Assembly (NCBI GenBank): GCA_040954595.2
Contig: CM082578.2
Coordinates: forward strand, 14,290,304-14,354,303
Source of the DNA: Balanoglossus misakiensis
Lineage: Eukaryota; Animalia; Hemichordata
Reading direction: 5' to 3'
Length of the DNA stretch: 64,000 nt
Shown: one piece after another, positions 39,318 through 63,346 of the stretch
Numbering within the stretch: position 1 is the first letter of the stretch
Layout of the letters: the number at the start of each line of letters is the position of its first letter
Notes under the pieces: generated by a model
What the model was told of the DNA's origin: nothing
What the model saw: the letters and a program-made list of their open reading frames with translations, nothing else
Databases searched by the model: none
Position numbers and translations under genes: made by a program

Positions 39318-40779
39318 CAGCTTGCACTGTCAAATTACTGGTCAGGTGACCACTGATAGAAAATACACCACATGATATTCTGTGAATAAAATTCATATGA
39401 ACTTTGGCATATACAAAGAAAATCAGGGTTATGGAAACAAACAAATTCAAATTCACAATCAGTGAAATTCCTCAACAGTGCAATCCACTCTTACATATAT
39501 TTGAAATAATGTACATTAAATTGAATTCTGTCATTACTCATGGGAATGTGCCGATACAAATCTGGACATTTTTTTACTATGGGGATAAGCGGTAGAGAAG
39601 ACTGTCTTTGTATGTTGATACCTTCACTTTCAATAAATATAGCAGAGCTGTAGTGCTAGATTTTTACATGGAAGATTTATTTTATTGTATCATATTGTCA
39701 CTCATTCTGATGAGATGTGTAGTCTGTTTTATTTTCAAAAACAGGAGAAGCAACTGTGTTGCTTTTTCAGAAAAGTTTACAATTTCTTGTGAGTGTTCTT
39801 TTAAAGTATTGTCAGCGTGTTCTGGATAAATATAAATATCTTGACTGTATTTTTATTTATGTACAGTGTAAGAAGGTATTCGAGAGCAAAGTAAAAACAA
39901 AAAATCAAAAATTTGTATCGTTTTTTTTGTCAAATTCGGGATGAATGTGGTGTAGTACATGTGTCGTGTTTGATGAGAGACAAGCGAAACCAATCAGTAT
40001 AGCGCCCCCAGCGATGAATATGAACCTCGCCGCCCTAGAACTGTAGAAAGACATTGTGGTTTATCGAACGTGAAGAAAGTTGTCAATTGTACTTGATTTT
40101 AAAACCACACATGTTCACTTGGAATGGGGAGAATAGTAGGCCAAGACCACTATTTACTAATTTGATTCTTATAGAAATATATAAAAAGGCAGGGGCTGTA
40201 CATTGAGAATATCCGCACTTTATGTAGGCTTATTTATGTCAAATTGTTGATTTCATCTTTGTAAATTTGTGTAAAGCAATCATTAAAATGCCCAATTATA
40301 AATAAACGTTCTTTTGACGGCGTTATAGCAATCTCTGCGCCCTTTGTATATTGCTCATTTTTAACGACGGAAGTCGCTGGCCTGTTATAGCTGGAAACTG
40401 TATTTTCTACTCATAAAAATAATTATTTCCAAGTACTGGCATTGCCTTCAGCATTCATCTTTTACTTCAGACAGTCACCAGATTACTGGCCTTTTCCTGA
40501 AGGAAATTTATTATCGCCTCTCATGGTTGGGTCTAGACCCTCTTGTTGTATTAGGCGTTACTGCTCTGTCCTAAGTACGTGCGTCACAGGAAATTGCTCC
40601 AAACACCGGACAGGCCCAGATACTCATCCCCTACACCTGATGTTCGTTACCAAGATACCATAGTGTCGAGTGACCATCACAGACAAAGCGCATCCTTAGT
40701 TCTCGGTTTCCATCACATCATCAGCTTTTGCCTCGAGAGATTTCAAACAAGCGTCTTCAGTTTTGTATGTGCAAGCGAC

Positions 40780-43118
40780 ATGGAGAAATCCTTTGGCAGC
40801 GCAAGTTACTACATCACTGGTGTTTCTATCGCACTGATAGGCGTTGCGGGTCTCTTGGGTAACAGCATGGTGGTGTTGGCCTTCGTCAGAGAGAAGAACT
40901 TACGCACGCCGACAAATATGTTTATCCTCTCGATTGCGGTGAGCGACCTGGCCATGTCGGTTATGGGCAATCCGTTTTCTGCTTCTTCAAGTCTCGCAAA
41001 GCGATGGTTGTATGGAGAAGGTGGTTGCAAGTGGTAGGTTAAGTAGTTTCTCTTTTGTACAGAACAGAATATAAAAAGAATCGGCAAATGTAAGAATTTT
41101 TCTTTAAATTGTAGGACGCTTTATTCCCCTCCCTATTTTCAAGAGAGAATTTCCGTGTGCAGAGATCTACGAATAGGCAATACGAATTTTACAAATAGGT
41201 TTCATTTAGCCAAACCACAGTCCCTCCACACAGTGACTGTGGCCAAAGGTTTGACATGAATATCCGATTTTAAGGGTAACCAAGGTCCCTGAATAAGATG
41301 GCTTCGAACATTGTCCTTTCTTACAGGTATGGTTTTGCCAGTACTTTCCTTGGTCTAGTTTCGATGAACACTCATGCTATGATCGCTGTCGACAGATACA
41401 TCATCATCGTCAAACCGCACATCGGTAAGAGAATGGTGTAAATGTCATCACTTATCAACTATTAAAGAGAGCTTTCAGTTTTTGACTTTTACCCCGTGTT
41501 GGTATTAGTATTTTCATCCGTATCTGTGAACAGTGATCAAATTGAGAACCCCTCCGTTCTATTGCTTCCCTTACAGGCATAACCATTACAAACCAGAAAG
41601 CTGTAAAAGTAGCGGCCGTGGCTTGGTTATGGTCCTTTATTTGGTCTATATTTCCCTTGATCGGCTGGTCAACATATACCTTCGAAGGTGCGGGCATCAT
41701 GTGTAGCGTGCTGTGGCAATCTGACAAAACCAACGTTCTGTCGTACGTCGTTTGTCTCTTTCTCTTTTCATTTGTCCTCCCGATAGCCATCATGGCGTTC
41801 TGCTACGCTGGTGTGTTTTTGAAGATGAAAGCCACGGCCATGATTCAGGAGTCTTGGAATCAAGATTCAAAGCAAAATGCCATAGTGTAAGTTATACAAA
41901 GTCGTTAACTTTTGACATTAATTTTATGTACAATCATGTTATGCATCATTGAGCAAATCTACAAAAACTGGTACAAAATTTCGATATGTGATCAACTAGA
42001 AACACTTTCTCTTTTTGGCCTCATGCGCACTTTCACTTTTGAATGAGTCATTTGACGTGTTTTAAGTGAGAAGACCCTCTTCACAATCTCCACCGGGGAG
42101 ATTGTGAAGGAACCGTCCTCCTGCTGAGGTCCGCGTTTCGAAGGCCGTTCTTTATGTAGCTCTAAACGTTTCCTTGTTTCCCACACAGACAGAAGAAGTT
42201 CCTGAAAGTAGCCCTCATGACTGCCATGACCTTCTTAGTTTCATGGTCACCATACGCGATAATGGCACTTATAGCAACATTTGGTAATCCGAACGCCATC
42301 AGTCCCGTCTCTGCAACAATCCCGGCAGTCTTTGCGAAGACAAGCATTATCTACAATCCAGTTATATACGCCGCAATGAACAAAAACTTCAGAAAGGCGT
42401 TTCTTGAGGTCAGTTTTCGGTCTTTTCCCGAATTTTCTGCATAAATAGACCCTGCGTTTGTGCACAGAACTTTTTATTGGGAAAGGGGGGGGGGTCAGAT
42501 GTTCATAAAAGGTTCCCCTTAAAGTATGTTATTTCTTCTCTCAGATGTTGCCTTGGTGTCGTCAGACGGATGCAGGCGAAGCACCTCAGCCAACGTTAAT
42601 CACTAATGTGCGATATCGAGCTTCTGTTACAAGTAAGTGCGATCAGGACTATTACCTCATAAGCAGGGATATGTGCTGACTTGGAATTCGAGCTTACAAG
42701 CGACTGTGCTTGTGGCGGTTTTCCCGGGAGAATCAATAACACAATAAAATATTTAAAAAAATGGGAAGAAAATAAGTATATTATCCGATGTAGGAACGTT
42801 TCAGAAAAAATGACAGCACTAAAATAACCATAAAAAGTCAGACTGTAAATCATTAATTGGGTGTAATGATTTTGGGTATTGGCAATTATTGAAATTAATG
42901 ATCGACAGTGGAATTTTGGGATATGGTATTTGCTTAATTGAGTGTTGTAGACACGAACTGGCGAATTGTGGGTGAGAGAGATTTTATATGAATAAATTTG
43001 AATTATTTCAGTAGATGCTGCTGGAACGTCAAGAGTGTCTGTAGACAACCGTAGAACAACAGAGGCGGCAGTAGATGACTTCACTCTTCCGGGGGAATCA
43101 TCTCAACCTGCAACTTGA
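40780..43118 (+). CDS. Opsin (rhodopsin-family GPCR with retinal-binding lysine), ~358 aa; exons 40780-41033, 41327-41424, 41577-41886, 42189-42408, 42545-42632, 43012-43118
   Basis: Motifs seen: GN in TM1, LRTPTNMFILSIAVSD, WLYGEGGCKWYGF, DRY, GWSTYTFEGAGIMCSVLW (E181 equivalent at 41684), WSPYA, and FAKTSIIYNPVIYAAMNKNFR (K296 equivalent at 42337-42339). Splice phases are consistent. The last two exons are less certain and the subfamily is unresolved. Confidence 0.92.
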
Positions 43119-43998: not shown

Positions 43999-45564
43999 TA
44001 TGATTCATAACTTCATTGTTTTTTTTTACGTATTACCGAAAACATGGTAAAAGCAAGCTGCACTGCAGTCGCACGTTCGCCTAGTTTCACTCTGTAGTGT
44101 AGTGACTATTTATAGTATGCAGTGCACGTACAGGTAGAGCAGATTCGGAGCGTTTTCAGACATGTATATCAAACTGTAGTACCATTTTGTGTGTAAGACC
44201 GAAAAGAAGTGGTGGTGGTTTCTCCACTGACACATGAAAATGCAAGCTATCAATTTCAATGGTTTACGTGAGATGCATTAAGACGACAGTACGTGTTTGG
44301 CAACTTGCCTGATGCTCCCGTGTTCAAACACCTTCAGATTTGCTTGGTGGGCGTGGCTTAATGCATGTTGCATATGAATGAAGTTATCAAAGATCGAAAC
44401 TTGTGTGCGTGGAGAGCACCTGTATGGTAGAATCAGCATATCCAGAGAATAAACACATAAAATTTGGCGAAACCTGCTATAACTAACAATGTTACAAGTT
44501 TATGATTGTACAGTATGCTTGTCATACTGATTATCTGGTAATTTAGTATCATGTCTTATGCCCTGATGCCGTTCATTTATTCTATGGCCAATATTTCATG
44601 CAAAGCTACATAATATCAATAATTTACCCTGTTACAGGTTAACAGCTTTTAGATACCAATTCAAACTGTCAAAAAAAAAAAAAAAAAACTTGTGACAGTC
44701 ACAATGACCTGTGATATAATATCAACTTCTGCATTATATGAGTCGGCAGGTTTTATGTCAACATATTTATTTCTTTAATACTGGTATTATATTTGTTTTG
44801 TTTCTCTAAGATATTTTACTAAAATGTATTTCCTTGACGTATCTGCTATGTTGGCATGGTGTCATTTCCTTCTTCACCCAGATAATTCCTGGTATATTTT
44901 GCACTGTTTGTTCTATTTATGTGAAGGAGAACATTTCCATAGAACACTTTCTAATCTACTTCTTTATACTGGGGACCTGCAGTTGAACATTCTACCATCA
45001 AACTGACAACTATATAAAGTTGTGTGAGCCTGCAAGGCATACTCAAGGTTTCACTACGTCATCACAATTTTGCATCCGTCGATCAACAACTGAAAGACGC
45101 TGTGTCATAGTTGTGCACAGCCACTTTCAATATGTATTGTAAGTCCGCCATTGTTACAACTGAAAGTAGTGTATTGTGCATACTCTTCGAAAGACTTGAC
45201 TTCAAAAGAGCAAAATGCGTTTGAAACCTTGGTTTGCATCAGCCCTATACTTATAGTTATATCGAAAGTGAAGAGTACCTTGCATCATAGAAATTCCAAA
45301 TGTATTGTGTCATTGTTGACCTAGACGACGGGATCATACAGCTACTGCATGTGCAAGTACTTTACTGTTAGTTGTTGTTGTGGAAGAGATGTTTCCTTAT
45401 CCAACAAAACATATACAGCTACTGGGTAAGGTACAGGTACTTTTTTCATATACATGTAATTGCATGCATGTATGTATAAACATGCACACACATACGCACG
45501 CACATTGTAATGTGTCAGGACTTCCTTTTTTTCCCTGCCAGGTTGATATGATCCACCAACCACA

Positions 45565-48500
45565 ATGGGAAACATCAGTTCAAAAGAACAACTTTTGAAA
45601 CTACAGCAACGTCTTAAGCAACTTGAAGAACTTCTATCACTGGTAGAACCCTTCTACCTTGCAAATGTGAAAGTAAAACAGTCGGAAACAGAGGGCTTTG
45701 TGGATGTGGAAATTGTCAGAGCAGATCATGTGGAACCACCGCAGGAAATCTGCCAAGATGCTGTTCCCTTTCGTGGAAAACCGAAGGATAATACAGGTCT
45801 GTTGCAACAACACAAAATACAGCCACTGAAGGCAAGTTGGCAGCATCAAATTCCTCCCCAAGAGGGAGGACAACTTGCGGAGCATGTTGAACTACAACAG
45901 CAGCCTCATGCAGGATTGCAGCAACCACAGACGCAGCAAGACCAAGAACAGTATGTGTTGCAGCTGCATGAGCAACTGCAGAGGGACAGATCTCTTGAGA
46001 AACAGGTGCTGCAGGAACAGCAGCAACTTTTCCGTGAAACAGGACAACAGTCCAAGCCAGTCACTGAACATCAACAACACCAGATGAACCAAGACCAGAG
46101 TCGACAGCAGTTTCATCAACAGAATCAACAACCGGTACTTCAGCATCAGATTGAGCATATGAATCTGCAACAGACTGGCAATCCATACTCCAACTACATT
46201 GGTCCAAACGTTGGCTACAATGGGATGCTCAACGATGTCTGTAATGGCATGACGACAAGGGATCTAGCCAGTGTTAAAATGCTGATCAAACCAGGTTAGT
46301 GTTATTCAACTTAGCAGATAGATTGTTTCAGGCATATTCCAAGACTGCAAAAAAATTCCATTTCTATTACTATTGGAGATTTTATAACAACGAATGTTAA
46401 TTGTCTACTTTGTACCAAATGTTCGCATATCATTGGATGCCAATTTCCTCCTTTGCTTTCATCTTTCCTCTTCAGATCCAATCACTGAAAGCCTGCGATC
46501 AATCCCGTCCAGTTTACTGGAACAAATCGTGACATCTCAGGACCTGATGACTCAGCTGGAACATCAACTTCTGTTGTCGCCACTGAACCTGTTCTTCCTG
46601 CAGTTTTTGATGATTCGAATTGACAGAAGAGACCTCCACAAAATCATCTACAGATACGGCAAATCCAGGGGCAACACTCTGCAGTTCTTTGTGAGCGACA
46701 GACCTCGAGGTGAGAGTTTATGAAGGAAGCCTAGAGTTACACTCCATGTACAACCTGTCTATGTGTACAGATCGACACAGCCCATTAACCTTTTCACCAC
46801 ATGATAGTTTGGTCCAAATCCATTGTTTTCAATAAAGTTGGACCTCTATAGTGGAATCTGGGGGGGGGGGGGGGGTGAAAGGTTGTACATATACTTCTGA
46901 TACAGTCTAGAGTGGAGACTAGCCTATATGTTTACATGAGTGCTTGTTCACAGTGTGCCAAAATGGCTTACGTTTGTGATGGTGTTACTACCCTGACCTA
47001 TTGAATGTATGCATGTACTTTATAAAATCCTGTAGCACCATGGTATTTACAAGTGCCACATTTCTCATTACATTAAAATCCACTGTTTGCAAATTACTGC
47101 AGATTCTGGATGGATGTACGTGAATTTCCATTTCCAAGGAAGTTTGGCTCACTTTGATATGGACAACATCGATCAATTTCGGGGATATCTGCAGCAGGAA
47201 TTGGGAATCCCACTGGAATACATCAACGTCTCAGGCATACAGCCCGGAAGTGTAATTGTAACATTCCAGCTGCCGGAAACTTGCGCTGAGAATGTTGAGA
47301 CAATGATCAGAGAACAGAACTTCTGTCAGAGGTACAAGATCAAGGCAGCACAGATTGACGGTCAAGATTTGGTGACATTCAATTACCCAGGTAATTTCAT
47401 ATATTGCGGTCAATATTTTATGTTGATTCTGAGCAATTACTTCACATTTTTTCCATGAAATGACTCTGTGAAAAAATAACACTGTGAAAAACAGACTGTT
47501 GGTGGGAGAATAATCTGAATAAATTGGCCATTTTCTAATTCCTGTTCGAAACTCTTCACCCATTGATCACTTACTATCTGATTTTTAATCTCTGCAGATA
47601 ACATATTGCACCAGACCACAACAGCATCCGTTGAAGATGAAAAGGGGATTCTGGTGGAATCTGAGACCAGACTGACCCACTTGCAAAAGGGAGTGGAAAT
47701 GCTGCTAGATGCAAACTCAAAGCAGCAAGAAGAGCTTGAGCAATACCAGATGGCAATTCAAGATGCCAAGGAGGAGGTGGAAAAATCCAAAGAAGCTGAG
47801 CTAGTGCTGGAGGCACGACTGGTAGAGATGTCAAACTCAGAGGCCAAGTTGAAGGAGAGGATTTTGCAGCTGGAAAAGCAACGGGCAGAGGATGCAGACA
47901 CAGTACAGGTTCTGAGATTTGAGAAAGAAAAGCTGAGAAGAGAGAATCAGAAAACGAAAGAGGTGTATGAAGGAAGGAAGTCGGCATCGCAGAGTGCAAA
48001 CGGAATGAATTCTGGGATAGAGGTGGGTCTGTGGAGTGGAAGCAAAGTTCAGTCAGGGACAACAGGAGGGACAACAAAACCTGAGGCTGACGTTCCCTCC
48101 CAGTCAACAAGGAGGCGATCATGGTTTACAAGCAAGTCAACGCTTGAATTAGAAAAAGTGAAAGCTGAAAATTTGGATTTGAGGAACACTTGTCGCGTAT
48201 ATGAAGAAAAGCTACAGCAAATGGAAGAGCAGTTGAGGGACTACAGTGACCAGGTGATGATGCCAGGAGAATCCAAAGCTGATAGCATTCTGAAGATGTC
48301 AGCCGCCTTGAGGGAGACTCAGGTATTTCAAGTGGATTCCATGACAAAGCAGACGGAGAGACTGATACGGATAATTAAAAAGCAAAATATTGAAATGCAG
48401 TATTGTGATGAAGAGGAGAGCCAAGCCTTTGATTCTGGTTTGAAAAAAAAAGTCTCTTCACTGATCGTCATCTCTGGGACACTGGAAGAGATCAAGAAAC

Positions 48501-51443
48501 GGTTAAAAGCTACAGAAGTTTTGTGTTACACTGGAACAAAACCGAAAGTGAACCGGTCGAAATCTGATTCTGATGTTGATGATGACATGAAGTCTGCATC
48601 AGAACCTGCAGAGTCAATGGAATTGGGACCAGGTAGCATTGAGACGTCAGAAGATGATGACAGTCACACAGGAATTGAGATGAAAATGACGAGAACAAGG
48701 GAAAAGGAAGAAATCCACAGATCTAGTGCAAACTCAGTTCCGGATGAGGCCGACCGAAAAGCGATTCACAACCAATCAGGATCTGCAAATGCAGAGGGTG
48801 CCAAGCAGAAAGGAACAACGACAGTGACCAAACCAAATGATGGACCCGTCTTAGGCAGGTTCAAATTTGGTGCACAGATTGGCAGGTTGAACTCTGACCC
48901 TGATCACGATGAAACGGAGAGAGGCAAGGAAAGAGAGGCTCAGTTCATAGATCCGTTCATCATGGCTCTGTCAAATGTGCTTGCCATGAACGCTGCACCC
49001 TCATCACCTGGGAGAAATCTGGGAATTGGTAGTGGGTTTGCCTTTGGTTTCTCCAGTGGTGCAGGTATGCTTGCTGATGATGATCCACTTGGAATGATCT
49101 GCTCCCCAACAGACCGCCAGTCATTGAAGTACGAGAGCATTGGTGCAGGACCATTTGCCTCACAGCTCTCTCCCACCACGAACTCTCATTGGCATATTGG
49201 CTCCAGCATTGACCTAATAGAACCAAACCACCGAACAGCAGAATCTTGCCCAGAACCAAACACAGACAGTACTGCACAGCAAAACAAAGGTAATGGTCAC
49301 AAAAATATAATGGTGTTTCACATAGTTTAGGCCCTAGTTGCTGTGTCATCTATGGATTTGCCTTAAACACGAAACATGATTGGCATTTGAGGATCCTATT
49401 CTTCCCAAGGTGTCATTCATCAACCTGCCCAACCACATTTTTTCAAAATGGTTACTCTGGTTATTTGCAATGGTTAGGGTTTTATCACGTTCTGTTCATG
49501 TACCTCACACCTGTTTTTCTTGCTTGAACAGAAGTAGAAGTATCCGTGTATCTGAATAATGAACAAGAAAAGGACTCTGAGAAAAAGCCAGAATGGATTC
49601 TGTGTTGTGAAATTGGCATGAGCTATAAACAAGTTGTAAAAATGATCGGAAATATGGTAAGTGTGAACTTCTTATAGTTTTTGAACAGCAAACTTTGACA
49701 CCCACTGTATGGAATCCATAGGATATGTTGTTTGTCCGGGAGAATTGCTTGCTCAGCAATGCACAGGAGTTCACTTTGATCTGTTCATGTTCAGAATCAT
49801 TTCCAAATTCTCCACCAATCACACGGATCTCCAACATCTCCACCAATCACACACTGCAATTTTCCCACTGGACAGGTGTTCAGCAAGACAGAGACAACCC
49901 AGTTTACGGTCACTGATCTGCAGGAGAATCCCCTCGATCTGTTTGCTGTGATTGAAGAAGATGAACCGGCAGTCCAGCTGAGAGTTGTGACAGTACTGGA
50001 CAGTGACAAATGGGTTTGGCAGTTCGATAAAAGTGACGGAATCCGATACAACAGAAGTAAATGTATGTTTTGTCATTATTTCATTTCAGTTCAAGTTATT
50101 TCTGCATAAGTCATGTCTCATGGCAGGAAAACTACTCGCAAAAGATCCTGAAAAAACTTAAATGTTGAATGAGTTTGAGAATATTCCCCCATAGTCTTTG
50201 ACACTTTTGGTCCATACAAAATTACCTAAATCAGTAACCAGATTACACTTGATGACTGAAACGACAAGTCTACATGAGGAAATAGACTTGTGGCTTTTAT
50301 GGCAGAACACTAAGTCTTTCCTTAGTGCTTGTCAATGTGGTATTAACTCTTTGAAATATAACTTTCTTGTGACCTATGTCATGCAGAAAGGATCACCCCA
50401 CAAACAGGATGCTAAAGGTCACATGATAAGGAGGTCAAAGTTGCAGATTAATGAAATTTGGTCAAAAGGGAATGTAGCCTATGAACATAGTCATTTTGGG
50501 GAAATAAGCTTAATCACACGGCAAACTGGGAAGTTACTAAGATGTTAAGTCGTGAAGGTGACCAGCTGTCATTTGCTGATGTTGGATACATCGAACACAA
50601 TTGTTTTCCATGTTTTTTGTCTGGATACTCAAGCATTTAAAATTTTATTACAGGTCCTGAACAAGGAATGTATGCACAAAATCCACGATCAAGGGTATGT
50701 TCAAATCACAGTTACCTCTGTGTTTGACTCATACAGTCAGTGCTGACAAGCTCAACACAAGAGCAATTCATCAAAGAAAGGAAAATTACCAAAAGCTATA
50801 GAGTATAGCTACATGTAGTTCCTCAAATTAGTACATTCCGGAAAAATGCAGGCTTGTGCATCTTCAATGAAATCATGGGTTGCATTGAGGGAAGCCAGCA
50901 GTTGTTTTATTCTGTCATTTCCCCTCACATTTGACAGAGCTTATCGTGGTCCATCGGTGGCAGTAAGAAAATCAAGATAGACGCGGATACCAAGTATAAC
51001 GACTTACCGGTCCATCTGATTAAAACAATGTGCTACAAACTGAAGGACAATCAAGATTGGAAGAGGTTAGCCAGTAAGTATTGTGAGGTAACACCTGCAC
51101 AAAGTAGAATTCTGTGTGAAGGTCCAGGCAGTGTTTGGTGGTGTTCTGTAAATGCATTAAACATAATTTTACTGCTTCCTCTAAAGGGAAGATTGGGTTC
51201 TTGTCTCAAACATGGAACTGTGTGGTAAAAAAGACCTACTGAGATTGTTTTTATTTCCCAACAGGAGTGATCGGCAAGACAGAGAACCAAATCCGTCAGT
51301 ACAGTGAAAAAAGTGATCCCTGTCTGACAATGCTCCAAGAGTGGGGAAAAGGGAAACATGCCACAGTTGGAGCATTGCTTATTGCATTGAGGTCAACTGC
51401 TGTGAATAGACCAGACATTGCCAACGAAATTGACAAGAGTTAG
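45565..51443 (+). CDS. Uncharacterised death-fold multidomain protein (DED + TRADD-N/SEA-like + coiled coil + C-terminal death domain), ~1203 aa; exons 45565-46294, 46476-46709, 47103-47390, 47598-49289, 49532-49656, 49876-50062, 50654-50694, 50938-51073, 51265-51443
   Basis: Nine GT-AG exons join in frame, and an in-frame TGA at 45544 fixes the ATG at 45565. The DED-like segment is YNGMLNDVCNGMTTRDLASVKMLI...DLMTQLEHQLLLSPLNLFFLQFLMIRIDRRDL (RxDL motif). The death domain is DWKRLARVIGKTENQIRQY...PCLTMLQEWGKGKHATVGALLIALRSTAVNRPDIANEI. Confidence 0.8.
46785..46885 (-). mobile_element. Reverse-oriented copy of the TTAA-CCCTTTCACC MITE family in a DED-DD gene intron
   Basis: TTAACCTTTTCACCAC...GTCCAAATCCATTGTTTTC...TTGGACCTCT...GGGGTGAAAGGTTG is the reverse complement of the internal sequence of 19367-19460, with an expanded G run. 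Confidence 0.6.
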
Positions 51444-52795
51444 AGATGTACTGTCAATGTCTTGTGAGTGATCTGTGCTATGCTTTGAGTACAGAATGAT
51501 CTGTATCGGACAGGAACTGAGAAAATTGTTTGATTTCCAGGAGTGTCTGGTTTATAGACGTTCTTGCAACATATATGTATGTGAAGTGTCCCAGGGACTA
51601 GAAAAGGGTGTTCGGTATTGATAGACAGGGGCACAATTCCAGAATTGGTATGTGTCACAATCCAAACACGTATTCATGAACACATGTAGTGTGGAGTTCA
51701 ACCTCATATGGGTAATGGTAACACAACTTCTTATTATGCCTAGTTTAGTGTGTTTGGTGAGGGTACAAATCTATATCTCAAATTATTTTAAATATAAAAA
51801 TATTTATATATGAATAGAAAATAACTGATCTTCCAAAGATAGATATGTGTGGTTTATTTTATCAAGTGTCATGCTGTGTTGTCAGTACGTTTTTAACTTT
51901 GTTAAATTAAACTTAAATCTCCATACTGTTACACCAATGTCATATATCATTGTTAAATACAATGCATTTTGACGAAACTTGAGGTGGAGTTGGAATTAAA
52001 ATTGAACAATGGTGTCAGTATTGTAGTTTATGCAATAAATTTTACATGTATATTACTTACCATACATTGTACTTACTTGATCCTGGTCCGATACATTTGA
52101 CGTGTGGTAAACTTTGAACAACCTTTCTGGACCCACCAGTGCTTACGTCGGCCCCATCTCCTCCAGTGGACATATGATGGTACAGATTTGGCAATAATTA
52201 ACACAGATACTCAGAAAAAAGATTAAAATATTTTATTTAAAAACTTCTCTTCACTAATATGTTACAGTTTAATGCCAAATGATGCAAAGTCTCTGGAAAA
52301 TTTTGTTTGGTTGACACTGATTTTTTGCTGAAAGTATGCCTTGCCTTATTTTAATAGTGATGTATGGAGAAAAGATGTCTTTTTCCTGGTGTATCTTTAA
52401 GTTATGTCTGTGAGATTGAAGGGGCAGAGTGGCTGCTATTTATGTAGCACTGTGTCAAAAAACAGTCACACAGCTATGACACAATGTCAATTACAAGATC
52501 CTTTGAAAAAAAGTTCATCATTTGAAGAAAAGTCTATATGATATTATTTACTGAAGTATCTAAAACTGCCCTTGTCTGTAAGTAAAAAAATACCCCTGAT
52601 ATGAAAACACTTAAACAAGTCAAATTTAAAATACAAATGTGAAATAATTCATCGCTTGGTTTAAAGTTATTTGACATGGAATAAACCCATGGAGATTACA
52701 TGTATATATATCTGAAAAAAAGTCCTAAGAATTGTTCAGCTATGTACACTTATAAAAGGCCCAAAAAACATTGCAATTTGCACGTCACTGTTAAA

Positions 52796-55493
52796 TTATC
52801 GCTTGTCGGTGGTATTTTTCTTCCTTCTTGGCGTTGGAATTGTCAAGAAAGTGACTTCATCACCTGATGAATAAAGAAAGTCGTCCAAGATACCACCAGA
52901 GCTAATAGTGGAATATGTCTCAGTCTTGTTCTTTGCCCGAAAGTTTCTCTTGTATGATGGCGAGGGCGCAACATCATTTCTATTCCTTAGGTTTGGTTTT
53001 GCGCTGAATACAGACGATCCCTTACACCTGGTGTTTTCTTTCTCACTGCTACTATTTTGATTTCTTTGGTGCTTTTGTTTATGCCTCCTCTCCCTGACAG
53101 TGTCTGGTCTCTCTGTCTCCTGGTCTGTGTCGTCACTACTGCTTGAGTAACTGTATTTCCTGTTTGGGGTCGCCGCACGTTTCTTCACATCGGAATCTCC
53201 ACTGCTAACGCTGTCAGAATCACTCAAGGGAACGACGCCATCCGAACTGTCAGAGGAAGTCCCATTTCTTGGGAGAATCGTTTTCCGTGCACTTCTCTCT
53301 TCTTTTTTCACTGACTGTGTATAAAGTGACAAATGACTTTGCAAAGACTTGTCTGATGAAAGCAATTTCAGTAGTAGTGGAGTCTTCAGCTGTGCGGCTT
53401 CGTCTGTACGAGAGGGCTCTCGCTGCTTTGCTGTAGACGCATGCCTGCCATCAATGCTTTGTGTTGGCGTATTGATGCTCACTCTTTTGAATGGAGACAA
53501 CAACTTGGACGGCGTCTGTGCATTTTCTGGGTTCTTCCGTTTTTTCGGTGTTATGGATTTGTGATCGATGGATTTCTTTGCGCTCGATGGGAATTTTTCC
53601 GAGGCTGTGTTCCTGACTGGCTTGTTTTTCTCTGATTTGAAGATGTGCATCTTGAGAGTTTCCTGAGAATGTCTGTGTTTATGATTGTCTGTCCAGTAAT
53701 CATCCTTTGTCCTTACCACAGTCATTTCACCGGGTGTGTTACAATCACCCTTCGTCCTTATCGCTGTTGTTTTATCGTGACCGGGGTCACTTTTGGTTTT
53801 CATACTGCAGCTACTCTGTGAGAAAGTCAAGACTTTTTCTTTCTGCCCATCTGATCTGGTGCATGCTGCAACATTCAGAACCCACTTCCTGCACCTTTCC
53901 AAGCGGTCCTTTTCCAGGGTTCGATTCACCACGCGTGGCCGGGGTGTCCTTTTGACTGGACCGCTCTTATTCGAGGCATTGTCACTGTCACCGTCATCAT
54001 CACAGCCTTTATTCTGTCGAGAGCTCACACCCACACTTTGAATGCTTGGTCTGATTTCACCAGATTTGACTGCGATGACAGGTTTTACGGGAACCTTCGG
54101 TGCTGTGAACTCACCCCATCCGTACAATGAGCTTCCCATTGACATTCGACGATCTGCATCCTGCTTGGGTGATGCTGTCCTCATTTTCGCTCTGTCCCGC
54201 CTCTGGTCGCTAGAGTCATGCCTGTGACTGTGTCGATGACCGGATTTCAAATGAAGCCCCTTTATGCCATCATGCTCAGCAACACTGAAATTTCTGTGCA
54301 GCGAAGCCCTGGAGACATCATTCCCCTCAGTCAGACAATCACTTTCCAACGTAGAGTTGAAACTTTTCCTTTCTAGTCTACCGCCTTGTCTTACATGTTT
54401 CATACGTGGCGAGTCATAGTTCAAATCATGACAGAGGTCAGAGTTCACTTGGTCATAAAGGTCAGAGTTCACACTTTCACAGGCACTAGAAGTCTGCTCG
54501 TCCTCGCCGCTGGAGAAGACGTCATCGTCAAAGGCATAACCATCATCTTCATAACCATACTTCCAGTGTGCAACAACTTCTTGGTGCATGTTGCAGGCAT
54601 CCACCAGTCTGCTCGTCTTCTTCAGCTTATTAAAATCCATACACAGTATGTCATCAGGTAGATCTATCGAGGTACAAAAGTTTGACACGTTCATGATTAA
54701 GGACAAGTGAAAGATCAGTTCCGCATCAAGTGGAAGTATTGCCTCTTGACGAGTCAAACCATTGTCAAAGACAAGAACATTGACTGAATACAAAAAAGCA
54801 TCAATGTCACTGTACATGTACTCCCATATGATCTATTTCATATAACATGTAGTTTGTAGTTTATATGGCATCTCCCCTGTCCATAGTAGTGACTTGCGTC
54901 TTACCTTGTAATCTTGATAGATCAGATGCTTGGCTGTCCAATTGCTTTGTGTGCTTTTCATATCTTGGTGATGTCACAGTCAAATCAATTTCAATATCCT
55001 CCTCCTCCTCCTCATCATCATCATCCTCCAAAGATTCATCATCTTCACTGAATGACCCTTCATCTTCACCTAAGCCTTCCCCCTGCAAGTTGTCACCTCC
55101 AAATTTTACAGTTTCCATGGTACTCAGCAGAATTTCATCATCATCAAAATCCCTGCCATACTAGAGAGGAAAACAAAAAATATTAGTCAACAAAATGAAC
55201 AAGTCAACCTTAAAGTTTGCTGCAGTTCAGTAGCTCGAACCCCCCCCCCCCCCCTCTACTGTCTATGGTTTGTGTTGCTCGCCATCATCTGTCTGTTGAC
55301 ACTATGACAGTTCCCGAGCGAGTATCAGTTGACACAAAAACGCCCACATCAGACATAATTTTCTCATTCGTCCTACCCTAGTTAATATGCTGTTCCACTT
55401 GTGCATAAAACTGGACTTCGATTTCCGTAGACGAGTCTCTAGCATGGAGTCGATCGTCGAACTCCTCACTGTGTTCGTACTCACGCCCGCCAT
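52796..55493 (-). CDS. Putative Scm3/HJURP-like CENP-A chaperone, ~746-786 aa; exons 55493-55377, 55160-54905, 54663 (or 54783)-52796
   Basis: The spliced N-terminus MAGVSTNTVRSSTIDSMLETRLRKSKSSFMHKWNSILTR|YGRDFDDDEILLSTMETVKFGG resembles the Scm3 domain. It is followed by an acidic tract and a long basic/Ser-rich region (673-codon ORF 52796-54817). The gene itself is well supported; the HJURP identity is inference. The exon 3 acceptor is ambiguous. Confidence 0.7.
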
Positions 55494-55571
55494 TTTGTTT
55501 TCAAATGTTAGCGGTAAACCGCACAGTGCGCCCTCTGGTACGCCCACTAGTTCGTGACGTCACTTTTAAAG
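55494..55571. promoter_or_regulatory. Compact bidirectional promoter (78 bp between divergent ATGs) with CRE palindrome, CHR-like element and CTCF-like motif
   Basis: The minus-strand ATG is at 55493 and the plus-strand ATG at 55572. GTGACGTCAC lies at 55554-55563, TTTGAA (minus) at 55500-55505 and ACCAGAGGGCGC (minus) at ~55527-55539. Both ATGs sit in a YY1-like AA(A/G)ATGGCG context. Confidence 0.75.
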
Positions 55572-58500
55572 ATGGCGCAGTCCTTGTCGGATGAAGAATT
55601 CCAGCGGCTGCAGGTAAATACATCACAAATATGATGAAAAAATACTGGGAAGTGATATTTTTCAAAGCAGACCACCACTTAGTGTTTTTAAGATCCTACA
55701 TAAATCGAAAGAAATGGATGACTTGGAAAATATCACGTAAATTAGCCGACTTACTGGGACTGTTTTGGTTTTGAAAATGACTGTGCTATGACTCGACTAT
55801 GTATTCTTACACGCTTGGCTTGGTTCCGTAGCTCGAGGTGTTGCCTGGTATTGGACCTCGAGTTACGGTACTGCTGCTAACGCAATTCAATGACACGATT
55901 CACACCTGACCTTTCTTGAGGTCATTTCAGGGTAAAAGTGGGCGTGGCACTTTATTGGACCAAGCAGCAGCTTCACCTTTTGGTGTTGACAATGTGTTGA
56001 CCTTTGACCTCGCAATAAGGTGACCATCCTCCTGCAATGGAAAGTGATGCTTTCAGAGCTAACCACCACCATTTAGCGTTAGGGCATTTTTGATTATCAT
56101 TGCCGTTTAACTTTATCAATCGTGTTTGCTTGAATTAACTTACAGTCTCTGCTTTGTAGACTGTGTATTTTCCTCTCCTAATTTTTTTCATCACATTGCC
56201 CGCAGAATCAACTGCTGGAACTCCGCACAGCAAATTATCAATTTGCTGATCAAAACAGACTACAGTCATCAGGTCAGTAATGGCTGGAATTACAGAGAAT
56301 TCAGTTAATATACATTTAAGTGTTTCCAACATATACCCTGCACGAGAACCAAAAAAGTTTTATGGCAGATATAGGAATCAGGAAATATTTTGTATTTGTT
56401 TGCACACATGTTCTTATACTATCTTCAAATTCTGAGTAAAGGCTGTGGTATTGAATGCCAGTCTTGAAGTTAGGTCAATCCATTGTGGAAAAATAACTCT
56501 ATATGCATAAGATATAGAATCTCTATCAGGAAACTTTTCCTGTGAATGACAAGATGATGTATGCATAATTTTACAAAGCAAATGTTATGACTTTTACAAT
56601 AGAGTTAACCAGTCTTCGGAATACAGTAGCTGCTCTTGAGAAAGACCTACAAAAAGCCACCAAGGTGAGTGTCAATATGGTACATGGAAAAGTAGGTGTA
56701 CTTCTTAGTTAGTGCTCAGAGAATGTGCACATGTGATGTGAGTCTTTGTGTCAAATGAAAGATAAGCTTGTGATATGACTTTGTGTATTTTGTATTTGTC
56801 ATTGTGATTTTGTTTCAGGTTTTGAGGTATAATGTAATTGGATTGATTAAAAAGTTTTAATCAACATTTTTTATTTATTCATTTTGATTTTCTTTTTGTA
56901 GGCAATCTCAAAGAGCAAGAAAGCACAGGAGTTTGAACTGTTATTGACTGAAAATGATCAACTTCAAATGAAGATGGTGGGTCAGGAGGATGACTTCAAA
57001 CTGCAGAACAGTACCATGATGCAGGAGCTTTCCATGGTGAGCTGTTATTCTCCCAACATTCTGACAAGACTTCCGTTTATACCAGTGGGAATCTTGACTG
57101 TTTCAACACACTTGCATTTTTTCCTGGCAAAACAAATAATAAGTATTTCTCAAAAATGATACATGAGAATTCTATCAATGAAGGTAGGATAGAATTTTAT
57201 ACATGACTGTAATGTCTCTTTTTCGCATATGTAAATACAGTTGTATGACAAGAATGAGAAACTGGAAAGGGAAAAGAAAGCATTGGAGGAAAGTCAAGGT
57301 CAAGATCATCAGGCAGAGATTCGCCGACTGCAAGCTACGAATACTGCTTTACAGAAAAACTTTGATGATTCGCAACAGAAATATCAAGACAAAGTGAACT
57401 CGCTCAAACATCAATTAAGGTTGGATGAAACAATGGAAGAGTCAAGAGGTAAATATTGAACATAAACTTTCAATTTGCTTTGTTGCAGTGTCCAATGTCT
57501 GAAACGTTGTACAGCTGGAAAATTATAAAATTGACATACATGTATATATTACCAAGCATGCAAGAATTAAAACCACAGCATACAAAAGTTCTACATTCAT
57601 ATGTTAAGCCATGAATTTGTTATTTTATTTCATCCTCAGACACCAGTAACTCAAGTGCCAGTGTCTCCCAGGTAAGAAATGTCATGTATACGTGTATAGA
57701 ATCCTACTGCAGATAATTGTTACATTCTTACTAACGAGATGAAAATGAAACTTCTCAAATACTTCATAATTTTTTTCTTCAGAATGAAGAACAGAGCAAT
57801 AAAATTGACCAAATGCTAAAAGAATTGAGCGGTAAGTTGGTGTTGGCTAAAATTTTATTGCATAATGCAACTCAGTGTGTTGAGTGCTTTACAAAGAAAG
57901 TTTGTGAATGTGATATGATGTGAGATGACAGAACAATGCTGTTTTCACAGTCGCTCCATACTTTATGTGTTGTGCTCAACATAACTAGTCTGTCCCACTG
58001 AAATCAGTGAAGTTAGTTTTAACGAGAATCAATGTCCTTGGTATGTCTGCATATATAATGTGTCTTTTCTTTGTAGAGTTGACATTGCGAGCTGATACTG
58101 AAAGAGAAGAAAATAAAATGTTAAAGGATCAGCTGGCTACACTTGAAGTAAGAACTCTAGTATTGATATTAGCATTATTGTAGACATTTTGAGGTGGAGT
58201 TCAACTGCATCTATTGGGTTGATCATATTGTACACAATTAGGACGTGATTGAGATCATAATCATGTTGATAACAGCTTGTATCCTGTTTTTCCCCTTAAC
58301 CTTGGATAGAAGCAATACCAGACAGAACATTCAAGTTCAACAACAGAACTCAGTAAGGTAGGTCTGCTTTGGAGGTACTGTCAGTGACAGGAAAGACATT
58401 TGGAAATCATGTCATTTTTAATTTGCAAGAGCCACACCATGATTTCAAAGTTGATATGTACACAGTTACACAAAATATGCAGAGGATTCCATTCATTGAT

Positions 58501-61500
58501 ATATTTCATTATTTTTTGTGGATGTTTCCAGTTACAAGAAAAACTCAAGAAGAAACAAGAAAGTTTTCTTCAGCTACAAAATGAGAAAGATGGATTGTAT
58601 GTAGATAACCAGTAAGTGTATTTTGTGTATTGATATACAGATCTTGTAGTGTTCAAGCATCTCAAATCAACAATCTAATTGAAGTTGTGATTATACCTTC
58701 TGATGCACTAAGTGTCACCCCAAGTAGTTTGATGTTGACACTGTCCCCAATTGTACATAGTTGAGGGGACAAGAAAGTGAGTTGAAAGTAACAACAGTGT
58801 CTCCTTGGTTTGCTTTGCTGTAAGAATTATGCAAGTGTACTGTGGGGGACATTTTGTTTAGCCTTTGTGGAAATGGAACATATCGTTGCAGTACATAACA
58901 CAGTCACATATCCCGATCAGGATGATAATTGATGTGAACTTGTCTTCCAGAAAACAATTAGAGGAACTGACAGCTGCAAAAGACAGAGAATTGAAGGTCA
59001 GTTCTTGAATGTATTTTGATTCAGCAATTGGTGTTCATCTGTATAATTTGAAAATATACTCAATATAGAATAGACCATGAAGGTTTTGTGTTATAGTTGC
59101 ATATCGTTTGTTTTGTGATCTTCATAGGTTTTAATTGAACAGAATGATAGGATTCAAGCAGAACTTACCAAGACCAGTCAAGTGAGTATTGTAGATACAT
59201 GAAAGTGGTGTTTTCTTTGAATGATCCAACAATCACAGTTCTTGTAGTTTATCCTATACATTGTTCCCATGGTTTACATCAATGCATATGATGTTTTTTT
59301 GTTCTTCCATTGACAGAGTTTTGATGTTTACCAAGACCAGCAGCAACAGAAAATACAAGATTTAGAAGCAACTATCCAAACATTGCAAACACAGGTACAG
59401 TATTGATGAACTGATATCACCACTGTCATAGTGTCCTGTATACCTTCAGAGAGACAGTACCGTAATTTACTAAAATCCTACCCTAATAAATTACATCCAT
59501 GTATAGAAGCAACGGTGAATCAGAAAAGAAAATTGGTGATATAGTTGTGGTGTTTATCTTCATTTGTGTTAAAGCCTTTCATGTAATATGCAGAGCTTTG
59601 TGCATACATGCAACATGTCAGTGCTGTAACTTTTCATGTACATCAAAGAAACAATTTATGATTTTTGAGTTTTTACCCATCCCAATTATCTTTTTTTTTA
59701 TCTTCCTCTCCTCTGCTTTTTCATTTCTTGTTTTGTCTCTAACTCTGTTTCTGCCATCTGCACGTGTTGTACCTCACTGTGTTCGATGTGCTGTCTGTCA
59801 TGGTATCTGTCTGGGTGTGTGTACCCACTGATAGGTGGATAGCAGTAGAACTGCCAGTAATGAGCAGCTCCAACAGTACTCGGCCGAAAACGCTTCACTT
59901 AAAACTGAATTAGACAACTTGAAAAAGGTAGGGAGTGCTGTGAGGGTCAGTACATTTTAGCACAGCACTCATTTTGTTTACTTTATGCTTTGGTGGTTTT
60001 TTTTGTTCAACTTTTGATTTCTGATTTTCACATAGGGAATAAAGATTGGTTCAGACACATTAGGCATGGTATAAAAAGCCTGCATGTGTAGAATAATGGG
60101 TCTGCATGCATGGTGCATGATTTATTTCTGCATTTACAATCACACACTCATCATTTCTATTTAATTTGTTCAAATTCAATTTGTTTTTTATATTTTTCTT
60201 TCTTTCTGCATGATAGCTTCATAATGCACAAACAGAAGAGTTAGATAGGTTTCAGGTCAGTATATACACTCGTTGCTGCTTTTGTTTATTTGTGTAGACA
60301 ATGAACATTGCTGATATTGGAGGCTGTACTGTCTTGGGTAGTTGGTTTTCCAGAGGCTAGCATTTCTGAACTTGTACCATTATGTTTGTGAGTCATAACC
60401 ATGCCTAGTCACATAATCATAATTTTAATTCTCGTGTTGAATGTCATTGATGGTTAGCAATTCACTATTCACACAGAATATCAACTCAGCATTGTCAGGT
60501 GAACTGCAGGCTCTGCAAGCTGCATACAACAGCCTTGTAGCGGAGAAGGAAGACCTGCAGTTTCAGCTAACCGAAGGAATCAACTCAAACAGCCAAGTCA
60601 TTGAACAGCTGCAACAAGTACAAGCGGAGAAAGAGACAGTTCTACAGGACCTGGCTGAGGCCAACAAGGTGAGCACTATTGCAATGCAATGAGCAATAGT
60701 CCAATATCTTCCATGTATTTTAAAATGAGTGTATACTATCACTAAGGTGAGCATTATGACAAGATTACTAGATATAAAAATCACACAAAATGGCAAACAC
60801 TGCCACATGGCTATGTTACAATCATTCAAAAGGATACCGCTCATGATGCAATTGACAGCACGTACTGCAGCCATGTTTGTCGTGCATGTAGCTGTGTTCA
60901 AGTTATAGCTTCCATGACATTGACATTATGTGAACTATTATTCATACATGTGGTTTTATTCATGTTTAGGTTGCCGAAAAGAGGAAATCCATGCTGGATG
61001 AAATGGCCATACAGATACAAACAACCAAACAACAACACACAGAACAAATCAACAGTATTCAAGACAATAACAAGGTTAACTGAAGTGTTTTTATCTTCCT
61101 TAAATCTGAACTTTTGTCACAAGATAGGTGTCCCCCTGAGATATGAATTGACCACTAGAGGGCAGTAAAGAAAGCTCAGTCACGTTTTGTGCCACAAGAG
61201 GGCAGTGTTGCCTACTACAAGTACAGATTTCAGTAAAAAATAGAAGTCCTTTTAACTCTCATTAATATCACATATTCAAGCTTTACATGAATGTGTAATT
61301 TTTGTGCGAAGGACAGGATAAACGGTGTTTTGGCATTATCCATTATGTACAGCATAAAGGACACATGTAAAGCAGTATAGCCTTTGCCACTGTAATAGAT
61401 CAATGTAATTTTACATGGACCAGTATGTGATTATTCAGGCTGATGGCATGTTGGACCCTGTACATGTACCATCTTGACCCTGTACATGTACAATCAACAT

Positions 61501-63346
61501 AGAGGTAGCATTATGATGCAGGTTGGCCAACTGAACTATAAAATGTGTGGCAGCCTCGGTGCTAATTTGTTTAAACTTGATTTGGTTGACCTTTGTAATC
61601 ACTATCAATGTCTGAGAATAGAGAGTAGAACTCGAGCTCTTTCCAGTGTCTGTGGCATGAGTAAGGAATGAATGGGGATTTTGGTTTTCTGGTTTATGGG
61701 TCAGGTGTCAGTGGTAAATGGTCTATTTTCTTGATGATTTCTTCTGTAGAAAGAACAGGACAGTTTGCGAGAACAGCTGCAACAAGAAGTGGTAGGTTCA
61801 TTCGAAACTCAAATCTTCTTACTTGCATCATCATTTCCAGAAAATAATGTAAACCTGAATTCTATAAATTGAAATAGATATTCCCTCCCAAGCTTAACTT
61901 GGTAGAACAATTCTCAGAGTTATAGAGCAACACAGGGGTTCAGTAACTAATGATTCTTGCTGCTTCTTTTTTATTAGAAAGAAAAAAAGGCCTTGGAAGA
62001 GTTCCGTGATAAGGTGCCTGAGTTGGAGAGCCGATTGGCATCCACAGAAAACGCAAAGGGATGGTTTGAAAGAAGTTTGGCAGAGTCAGAGGTTGGTGGT
62101 GTTCATTTTTTTTTTATCAGGCTTTATAATTTGTGTTCTGTAATGTTATGTTTTATCTCATATTTAATGTTAGATGTAATTAAGATTTTCCTAGTCTATA
62201 CTTTAAACATCAATAAAATGTGATCTCTCCCAGACGTAAGTTTTGATAAAGAAATGAAAATCATGTATGCACAGCATGAGAGAAAGAGAGAGTAAAAAAC
62301 AGGCAAATAGTTTGCAAGTGTATTAAATTTGATGGGAATAGAAAAAAGATGTGAGTAATCGCTTTTCTGTGAATTGAATTTCTGAACAGCTATCAATAAA
62401 CAGCGTTTCCAGAAGTGATAGACTCATTCATCACTGTCATCTCTGACAAAGTAATCTGTACATTTGAATAAATGAATAAAAGAAAACATAAAAACCAATT
62501 GTGTTTCCAAATCAATCATTTCTTGATGTTTCTGTGCGCCATAAAAACCATGTTTGGATGACCCAGCCACAAGAATATGCAGGAGAGGGCGTGTCAGAGT
62601 TCATAATGTCACATCTTGTGGAGGGCATTGTTGTATAATCACTGCAAATAAAGTCAATGGAAAGGTGTTATACCATAACCTGTCTGTATTTTTAGAAGTT
62701 TATATCAGGAGATATTTGTGAAGGCCATCTGTGTAAAACTCTAGCACTGGGCTATTAAATCAAATGTATCCAGATGTTACTTTATTATGATGTTTGTCCC
62801 AGCGATATGCATCCCCAGTCACTGAGACACAGATACCTATCCATAAATCCAAATGTTATTTTTAGAAGTACATGTATTTTCTAATTACCATCATGATAAA
62901 ACATGCTAATTGGAACTGGAAACTGGAAAACATGCACGCTTGGTTAAAACTTTCTTCTATAATATCTTGCTGCAGGAAAATTTGAAACAGAAGGAAGAGG
63001 AACACAAAGCAGCAATAGAAGAAATGAAGATTGAGCATGCCAAGGATATCGAGGTAACTTTTAATTAATACTCAAAAAGAGAGGTCAATAATTGGGATAA
63101 AAAAGACGCTAAGTTGGGATAAGTGTTTGAACAATGAGAGTGGGTTTGTGTCTTGCTCTCTCAAAAGTGAGCCATTCTCTTCAGCAAGTCAAACAGACAG
63201 ACTTATATGTTTATAGGTGTAATTTTTGAAGTTTGGTTTTCTTTTGTCAGGAAAAGGATGCCAAAATAGAAGAAAAAGATGTCGAAATTCAAAGTTTTTT
63301 GAACCAGTTAGATGAGAAAGAGAAGGAAATTGAGCAAGCGAAACAG
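55572..63346 (+). CDS. GRIPAP1: GRIP1-associated protein 1 (GRASP-1), 3'-partial; exons 55572-55613, 56206-56272, 56603-56664, 56902-57036, 57241-57448, 57640-57671, 57783-57831, 58077-58147, 58310-58357, 58532-58611, 58951-58996, 59128-59181, 59317-59394, 59835-59927, 60217-60255, 60477-60668, 60970-61074, 61750-61791, 61978-62091, 62976-63053, 63251-63346
   Basis: [26 protein letters not shown]...ELTSLR...[74 protein letters not shown] and [12 protein letters not shown] match recalled human GRIPAP1. The 21 exons are phase-consistent and the gene continues beyond the last exon found. Confidence 0.92.
61149..61208 (+). promoter_or_regulatory. Tandem pair of CTCF-like motifs in a GRIPAP1 intron
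   Basis: TGACCACTAGAGGGCAGTA (61149-61167) and TGCCACAAGAGGGCAGTGT (61190-61208) match the CCASYAGRKGGCRS consensus in the same orientation, ~40 bp apart. Confidence 0.55.

What the first reader, a model, noticed from the sequence alone, without database searches (positions are those of the whole stretch)
52796..55493. Hidden Scm3/HJURP-like CENP-A chaperone gene, recognisable only across a splice junction
Seen: exon 1 (39 codons) joins exon 2 to give LETRLRKSKSSFMHKWNSILTR|YGRDFDDDEILLSTMETVKFGG. An acidic tract and ~600 aa of basic/Ser-rich sequence follow, with five full CDK consensus sites (TPKK, TPSK, SPFK, TPNR, TPRR), a KEN motif (EKENT) and an NLS-like PKKRK. Recalled: the Scm3 domain of human HJURP (LQKLRASRRRFQRRMQRLIEKYNQPFED, Tyr40) and fungal Scm3 (W..I..KY...DE.DL.T.E) has the same amphipathic helix, KY/RY and acidic strand. 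The conserved Tyr here is also residue 40, and the total length is close to HJURP's ~750 aa. HJURP orthologues are hard to detect in invertebrates, so this gene is probably annotated as uncharacterised. Inference: it is the CENP-A deposition factor of this animal.
Basis: partly seen in the sequence, partly recalled or inferred. Interest (0 to 1): 0.85.

Follow-up and report, generated by a model that had tools for sequence, protein, structure and literature searches.

The report
Acorn worm centromere histone chaperone gene
This three-exon acorn-worm gene likely encodes HJURP, the helper protein predicted to load the centromere histone CENP-A onto chromosomes; the family was recently shown to exist across most animals, so this is an expected new member rather than a new system.

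Summary
A three-exon minus-strand gene model (55493-55377, 55160-54905, 54783-52796) gives one open frame of 786 aa with canonical splice sites, and starts 78 nt from the start codon of a head-to-head GRIPAP1 gene whose closest database relative is from the acorn worm Glandiceps. The scm3-like segment is split by a phase-0 intron before Tyr40. The best evidence comes from Hollis et al. 2026 (PMC13322267), who showed Scm3/HJURP in most animals. One unlabelled row of their alignment, XP_070557938 (probably Ptychodera flava, from the accession block), matches the spliced segment at 20 of 37 residues by eye; the other 12 animal rows match at 5-13. So this is very likely the acorn-worm HJURP orthologue, and a probable acorn-worm member is already in a published alignment. 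CDK sites are enriched (5 against 1.0 expected); the KEN and NLS motifs are at chance level, and the matches in Tyr number and length are weak evidence. Not done: a profile search or complex model of the spliced domain, RNA confirmation of the junction, copy number. The scan noted HJURP-like genes twice before, in other genomes. New member of a known kind.

The parts
55377..55493 (-). Exon 1 (coding part, 39 codons): start codon and the scm3 helix (Leu22-Arg39 at 55430-55377), ends at a GT donor
   Evidence: single-sequence AlphaFold2 gives a helix over residues 5-38, mean pLDDT 83
55161..55376 (-). Intron 1, 216 nt, phase 0, splits the scm3 domain between Arg39 and Tyr40; GT..AG with a strong pyrimidine tract and branch-point-like sites at -30 and -47
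   Evidence: predicted, no RNA confirmation
54905..55160 (-). Exon 2 (256 nt): Tyr40 and the acidic/hydrophobic strand of scm3 (55160-55104), then the acidic tract (res 62-100, 55094-54978)
54784..54904 (-). Intron 2, 121 nt, phase 1, GTAAGA donor
   Evidence: predicted
52796..54783 (-). Exon 3: about 660 codons of mostly polar, Ser/Thr- and Lys/Arg-rich sequence, likely disordered; CDK-site cluster at res 536-557 (53551-53486), further sites at 663 and 775; stop codon ends at 52796
   Evidence: no homologue found
55494..55571 (.). 78-nt spacer between the two start codons, likely a shared promoter and 5' UTRs; CpG-rich, holds TTTGAA (55505-55500, minus), TTTAAA (55565-55570) and TGACGTCA (55555-55562)
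   Evidence: function inferred
55572..62091 (+). Head-to-head neighbour GRIPAP1 (first coding exon 55572-55613; matched blocks to 62091); context, not part of the chaperone

Best explanation
The window holds a three-exon open reading frame of 786 codons that is likely the acorn-worm orthologue of Scm3/HJURP, whose N-terminal scm3 domain is predicted to bind a CENP-A/H4 dimer and deliver it to centromeres. By analogy with human, zebrafish and yeast members, the helix (res ~18-39) would pack antiparallel to CENP-A helix 2, the Arg39-Tyr40 pair would contact the conserved glutamate of that helix, and the acidic/hydrophobic strand (res 44-58) would cap loop 1, giving preference for CENP-A over H3. 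The acidic tract may shield the histones' DNA-binding surface (inference). The long polar tail would carry centromere-targeting contacts (Mis18 or CENP-C type) held off by CDK phosphorylation until mitotic exit. Shown: frame, splice signals, motif positions, CDK enrichment, neighbour. By-eye comparison: membership. Inferred: splicing, binding, localisation, regulation.
For: (1) 20 of 37 residues (Leu22-Lys58, one gap) identical by eye to XP_070557938 in the Fig6C_Metazoa alignment of PMC13322267, against 5-13 for the other 12 rows. A binomial bound corrected for 110,088 junction frames x 24 offsets x 37 gap sites x 13 rows gives 3e-6 to 6e-4. (2) The shared residues fall in two blocks, each found once in the unspliced six frames; one ends two codons before the GT donor and the other starts exactly at the first base after the AG acceptor, 55160. 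(3) That row sits between the rows CAH1263383 (lancelet, recalled) and Patiria, and XP_070576791.1 of the same accession block is Ptychodera flava (PMC12690538); the window's neighbour gene is closest to an acorn worm (84% to Glandiceps talaboti GRIPAP1). (4) Family architecture fits: N-terminal scm3, rest polar and unalignable. (5) CDK sites enriched, P=0.003, as in the HJURP C-terminus (PMC12296988). (6) Start codon in a CpG-rich head-to-head spacer with two CHR-type hexamers; HJURP is listed among CHR genes (PMC4176359).
Against: No profile or sequence search hit: separate exons gave no Pfam, NCBIfam or relevant PDB match, exon 1 gave no usable Atlas hit and no homologue, exon 3 had none among 1.84 billion representatives. 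These were run on half-domains, so they have little power. The general scm3 pattern alone is not above chance: the loose pattern hit 3 junctions in the window against a mean of 2.6 in 91 null windows. The strict pattern that picks only this junction was written after seeing the candidate and by eye matches only 2 of the 13 published animal rows, not including XP_070557938. The paper calls KY nearly universal in deuterostomes; this protein has RY. XP_070557938 is itself a computational candidate, unlabelled in the files read. Donor 1 matches only 4 of 7 consensus positions.
Confidence: 0.88

Rival explanations
1. It is a true scm3-domain gene but a duplicate with a narrower or changed role (for example germline-specific or binding another H3 variant), and another copy is the main CENP-A chaperone.
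For: Copy number could not be checked: no genome is held. The domain departs from the echinoderm/lancelet pattern by Trp33, RY and the lack of the DxGxL motif after the strand (by eye).
Against: PMC13322267 found a single strong hit in most deuterostome genomes. Trp at that position and the missing DxGxL are shared with XP_070557938, so they look lineage-wide; RY occurs in 8 of the 13 fungal rows (by eye). The housekeeping-type head-to-head promoter fits an essential gene.
Confidence: 0.06
2. The scm3 exons are real but the model is wrong downstream: exon 3 belongs to another transcript, or intron 2 is retained and gives a short protein of about 139 aa.
For: No RNA evidence for either junction; exon 3 has no homologue; exon 2 reads on through intron 2 to a stop at 54861; short Scm3 proteins exist (124-358 aa rows in Table S1).
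Against: Donor 2 (AAG/GTAAGA) is near consensus and the only pyrimidine-rich acceptor is in the frame that opens 661 codons; exon 3 has no other promoter space, lying 121 nt from exon 2.
Confidence: 0.04
3. The resemblance is chance: an unrelated disordered nuclear protein whose first two exons happen to give a helix followed by an acidic stretch.
For: No direct database hit; the loose pattern is at chance level; hydrophobic moment P=0.14.
Against: 20 of 37 identities to an independently chosen scm3 candidate from what is probably the same class of animal, collinear across a canonical intron.
Confidence: 0.02

Closest known systems
XP_070557938, HJURP candidate in data S1/S2 of Hollis et al. 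2026 (PMC13322267); probably Ptychodera flava by accession block (inferred)
   Same: 20 of 37 scm3 residues identical by eye, including the WNSIL helix end, the Tyr, Phe+4, the acidic run and the short ending without DxGxL
   Different: RY in place of KY; acidic loop one residue shorter; full-length sequence not seen, so the rest could not be compared
Human HJURP (748 aa, scm3 16-68, PDB 3R45)
   Same: Leu22, Ser25, Phe29, Tyr40, Phe44 in register (8 of 37 identical by eye); N-terminal domain plus long polar CDK-site-rich tail
   Different: Trp33 for Met33; no match expected or found for the vertebrate HMD, R1/R2 regions, which the paper reports as absent in echinoderms
Fungal Scm3 (Pfam PF10384; PDB 2YFV, 2L5A)
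   Same: Trp in the helix, [K/R]Y, acidic-Ile-x-Leu-x-Thr-x-Glu strand; up to 17 of 37 identical by eye to row KAJ3188836 (two fungal rows counted of 13)
   Different: Lacks the DxGxL motif of fungal and choanoflagellate rows; much longer
Zebrafish HJURP (si:dkeyp-117h8.4), C. elegans NEFR-1, Drosophila CAL1
   Same: Divergent scm3 proteins with little similarity outside the domain; the first two were validated by localisation, pull-down and loss of function in PMC13322267
   Different: No experimental data for any acorn-worm member in what was read

Membership tests
Scm3/HJURP | scm3 domain near the N-terminus: ~25-aa helix with hydrophobic residues spaced 2-4 apart | tested here: met
   Leu22, Phe29, Trp33, Ile36, Leu37 in register with the published rows (by eye); helix predicted over res 5-38 for exon 1 alone, which is a weak test
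Scm3/HJURP | KY dipeptide, with conservative change at Lys tolerated | tested here: met
   Arg39-Tyr40 across the junction; RY in 8 of 13 fungal rows
Scm3/HJURP | Acidic/short-hydrophobic strand after the Tyr | tested here: met
   Phe44, acidic 45-48, Ile49, Leu51, Met54
Scm3/HJURP | Sequence homology to an accepted member | tested here: met
   20 of 37 by eye to XP_070557938, corrected chance 3e-6 to 6e-4; count not made by a program
Scm3/HJURP | Profile hit (Pfam PF10384, HHpred to 3R45/2YFV) for the whole domain | tested here: inconclusive
   Only the separate exons were scanned; no hit. The spliced domain was not scanned
Scm3/HJURP | Rest of protein polar, disordered, not conserved | tested here: met
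   Composition; single-sequence model mean pLDDT 38.5 (not proof of disorder); no homologue
Scm3/HJURP | Predicted scm3-like complex with the species' CENP-A/H4 | not testable with these tools
   No CENP-A or H4 of this species was available (no genome held)
Scm3/HJURP | Prefers CENP-A/H4 over H3/H4, localises to centromeres, needed for CENP-A loading | not testable with these tools
   Needs experiments
Scm3/HJURP | Usually single-copy, reciprocal best match | not testable with these tools
   No genome held
Fungal/choanoflagellate-type scm3 | DxGxL motif after the strand (relaxed in animals) | tested here: not met
   Absent by eye here and in XP_070557938, as also in the human row; the paper does not treat it as required in animals

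The most novel reading that the evidence does not exclude
Acorn worms carry a derived form of the scm3 domain (Trp in the helix as in Dikarya and fly CAL1, no DxGxL hairpin) that grips CENP-A differently from echinoderm and lancelet HJURP, and the gene is driven from a 78-nt head-to-head spacer with CHR-type hexamers and a CRE palindrome, which would place DREAM/MuvB control of HJURP before the origin of vertebrates.
Probability: 0.25. Interest if true: 0.35.

Novelty: new member of a known kind. Interest (0 to 1): 0.2.

Why it matters
It names a gene that ordinary searches miss entirely (no hit in Pfam or among 1.84 billion representatives for the separate exons) and gives a second probable acorn-worm HJURP next to XP_070557938, enough to begin separating lineage-wide features of the domain from species noise and to study HJURP/CENP-A co-evolution at the base of the deuterostomes. 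It does not change the picture: broad animal conservation of Scm3/HJURP was established and tested in 2026 (PMC13322267).

Tried and rejected
No genome held for the window. No RNA holder listed for 52700-55600; no evidence either way. Pfam on separate exons and read-through: 0 families for all 5 candidate-gene queries; NCBIfam 0 of 3. PDB sequence search: exon 1 gave 4 unrelated lectin hits at E 0.1-0.8, exon 2 start 0, first 100 aa of exon 3 gave 8 unrelated hits at E 0.35-1.3. Word-index homologue search: exon 3, 0 of 6,914 candidates at E<=0.01; exon 1, 0 of 1. Full HMMER search with exon 3: 0 at E<=0.001. ESM Atlas: nothing usable for exon 1, best 0.80 for the start of exon 3, rejected as chance level. 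Single-sequence fold of exon 3 is low-confidence throughout; no fold search run. The hydrophobic stretch at res 126-205 (44% hydrophobic) was probed as a second domain without result. A second KY at res ~198 in exon 3 was considered as an scm3 repeat and rejected by eye: no helix hydrophobics in register. Synteny by accession adjacency failed, because the GRIPAP1 hit was from Glandiceps (XP_077980738.1), another accession block. KEN, NLS, D-box, RxL, PLK1-docking motifs: not above shuffles. No repeats of note in 52000-56500. The position of the first intron in human HJURP was not found.

Full report
Gene model. On the minus strand an ATG at 55493 opens 39 codons that end at a GT donor (55376). 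A 216-nt phase-0 intron ends in a pyrimidine tract stronger than 99.6% of the 1,816 minus-strand YAG sites of the window. Exon 2 (55160-54905, 256 nt) ends at AAG/GTAAGA; a 121-nt phase-1 intron leads to exon 3 (54783-52796). The joined frame is open for 786 aa. Of 10 AG sites tried after donor 2, two kept the frame open and only 54783 has a pyrimidine tract. Three phase-0 donors exist in exon 1 (after codons 3, 8 and 39), each matching 4 of 7 consensus positions, so donor 1 is not singled out by strength alone. Exon 3's 661 codons exceed the longest frame in all 300 resamples (mean 139, max 266). No RNA run was listed, so splicing is predicted, not shown.

Context. A second ATG at 55572 on the plus strand, 78 nt away, starts GRIPAP1. 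One of its exons found 1 protein among 2 candidates: GRIP1-associated protein 1-like of Glandiceps talaboti, 84% identical (XP_077980738.1), which aligns back to the window in blocks from 55572 to 62091. The window is therefore very likely from an acorn worm, in line with earlier notes on this genome. CpG observed/expected is 0.9-1.1 around the spacer against 0.47 for the window, which supports a real shared promoter and the chosen start codon.

Motifs. In 5,000 shuffles of the protein only CDK sites are enriched (full consensus 5 against 1.01, P=0.003; minimal 13 against 6.4, P=0.005). KEN (P=0.19) and the NLS pattern (P=0.82) are not. Human Tyr40 is confirmed from the paper's row and Table S1, but domain start positions of 2-92 and lengths of 124-1823 aa in that table make equal numbering and length weak evidence.

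Searches. The separate exons hit nothing relevant in Pfam, NCBIfam, PDB sequences, the ESM Atlas or two large protein collections. The intron cuts the domain into halves of about 20 residues, so these blanks say little; the spliced domain was not scanned against any profile library. Lack of relatives for exon 3 is what the family shows: 9.91% mean whole-protein identity among deuterostomes (PMC13322267).

Comparison with the published family. Hollis et al., Sci Adv 2026 (PMC13322267; read: parts 1-7 of 12 of the text, parts 1, 2 and 4 of 26 of data S1-S3, part 1 of 77 of the tables; the supplementary figure PDF could not be read and may label the species) define the scm3 domain as a ~25-aa helix with spaced hydrophobics, a KY pair, and an acidic/hydrophobic strand, trace it through most animals, and validate zebrafish and C. 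elegans members. I compared Leu22-Lys58 (37 residues, one gap in the acidic loop) by eye with all 13 rows of their Fig6C_Metazoa alignment. Identities were 8, 7, 5, 20, 9, 10, 13, 9, 10, 7, 9, 7, 10 in row order; the 20 is XP_070557938. Taking that count, a binomial tail corrected for all 110,088 junction frames, 24 offsets, 37 gap sites and 13 rows gives 3e-6 to 6e-4 for background identities of 6-8%. The shared residues form two blocks, each found once in the unspliced six frames: one at 55412 in exon 1, the other starting exactly at 55160 (these motifs were chosen after the comparison, so their own expectation values are not tests). This collinear match on both sides of a GT-AG intron is also the best support for the junction. 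The row is unlabelled: the text has no 'hemichord', 'acorn' or 'Saccoglossus' and the three supplementary files searched have none of six taxon names. It stands between CAH1263383 (lancelet, recalled) and Patiria, and XP_070576791.1 is given as Ptychodera flava in PMC12690538 (one passage), so an acorn-worm origin is inferred.

Pattern tests, for and against. A strict scm3 pattern hit 1 of 110,088 junction frames, exactly 55376/55160, and 0 of 10.2 million in 91 null windows. It was written after seeing the candidate and by eye recovers only 2 of the 13 published rows, so it carries little weight. A loose pattern recovers 10 of 13 rows by eye but hit 3 junctions here against a null mean of 2.6. 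The general pattern alone therefore does not prove membership; the close relative does.

Mechanism. By analogy with the human, yeast and zebrafish complexes described in PMC13322267, the helix would run antiparallel to CENP-A helix 2, Arg39-Tyr40 would contact its conserved glutamate, and the strand would pair with loop 1 of the CENP-A targeting domain. Exon 1 alone is predicted helical over residues 5-38 (pLDDT 83); exon 3 gives no confident structure (38.5). In human cells CDK phosphorylation of the HJURP C-terminus blocks centromere recruitment until mitotic exit (PMC12296988, passages); the cluster at 536-557 may do the same here (inference). No complex could be modelled: this species' CENP-A was not available.

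Promoter. The spacer holds TTTGAA, TTTAAA and TGACGTCA, with 0.13, 0.05 and 0.002 expected per 78 nt from window counts. The first two are the commonest CHR elements and HJURP is in the CHR gene table of PMC4176359 (passages); mouse Hjurp has a functional CDE/CHR (PMC5393061, passages). Six-base matches in one species are only a lead.

Novelty. Full-text searches for HJURP with Saccoglossus or with hemichordate returned 0 papers, so no acorn-worm HJURP is discussed by name in this library, but the family is established across animals and a probable acorn-worm member is in a published alignment. The scan has noted HJURP-like genes twice in other genomes and nothing like this DNA. Verdict: real gene model, very likely HJURP (0.88), new member of a known kind, interest 0.2.

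Noticed in passing
window 55494-55571: Only 78 nt separate the start codons of the HJURP-like gene and GRIPAP1, so both 5' UTRs and the promoter must fit or overlap here; holds a CRE palindrome (2 in the whole window) and two CHR-type hexamers.
   Followed up: partly
window 54542-54781 (-), res 126-205: A hydrophobic stretch (44%) with three Cys at the start of exon 3, unlike the rest of the tail; no match in PDB sequences or the Atlas. Could be a lineage-specific folded or binding element.
   Followed up: partly
window 45547-51443 (+): Multi-exon gene with a Gln-rich exon, a TRADD-like N-terminal domain (PF20694, E 1.8e-6), a long coiled-coil-like exon and a Death domain (PF00531, E 3.3e-7); converges on the 3' end of the HJURP-like gene.
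   Followed up: partly
window 40555-41037 (+): First exon of a rhodopsin-family receptor (7tm_1, E 5e-14); looks opsin-like by recall, type not determined.
   Followed up: no
window 32549-34180 (+): 543-codon Ser/Pro/Arg-rich open frame, probably a large exon of another gene.
   Followed up: no
window 55241-55255 (-): Run of about 15 G in intron 1 of the candidate gene.
   Followed up: no
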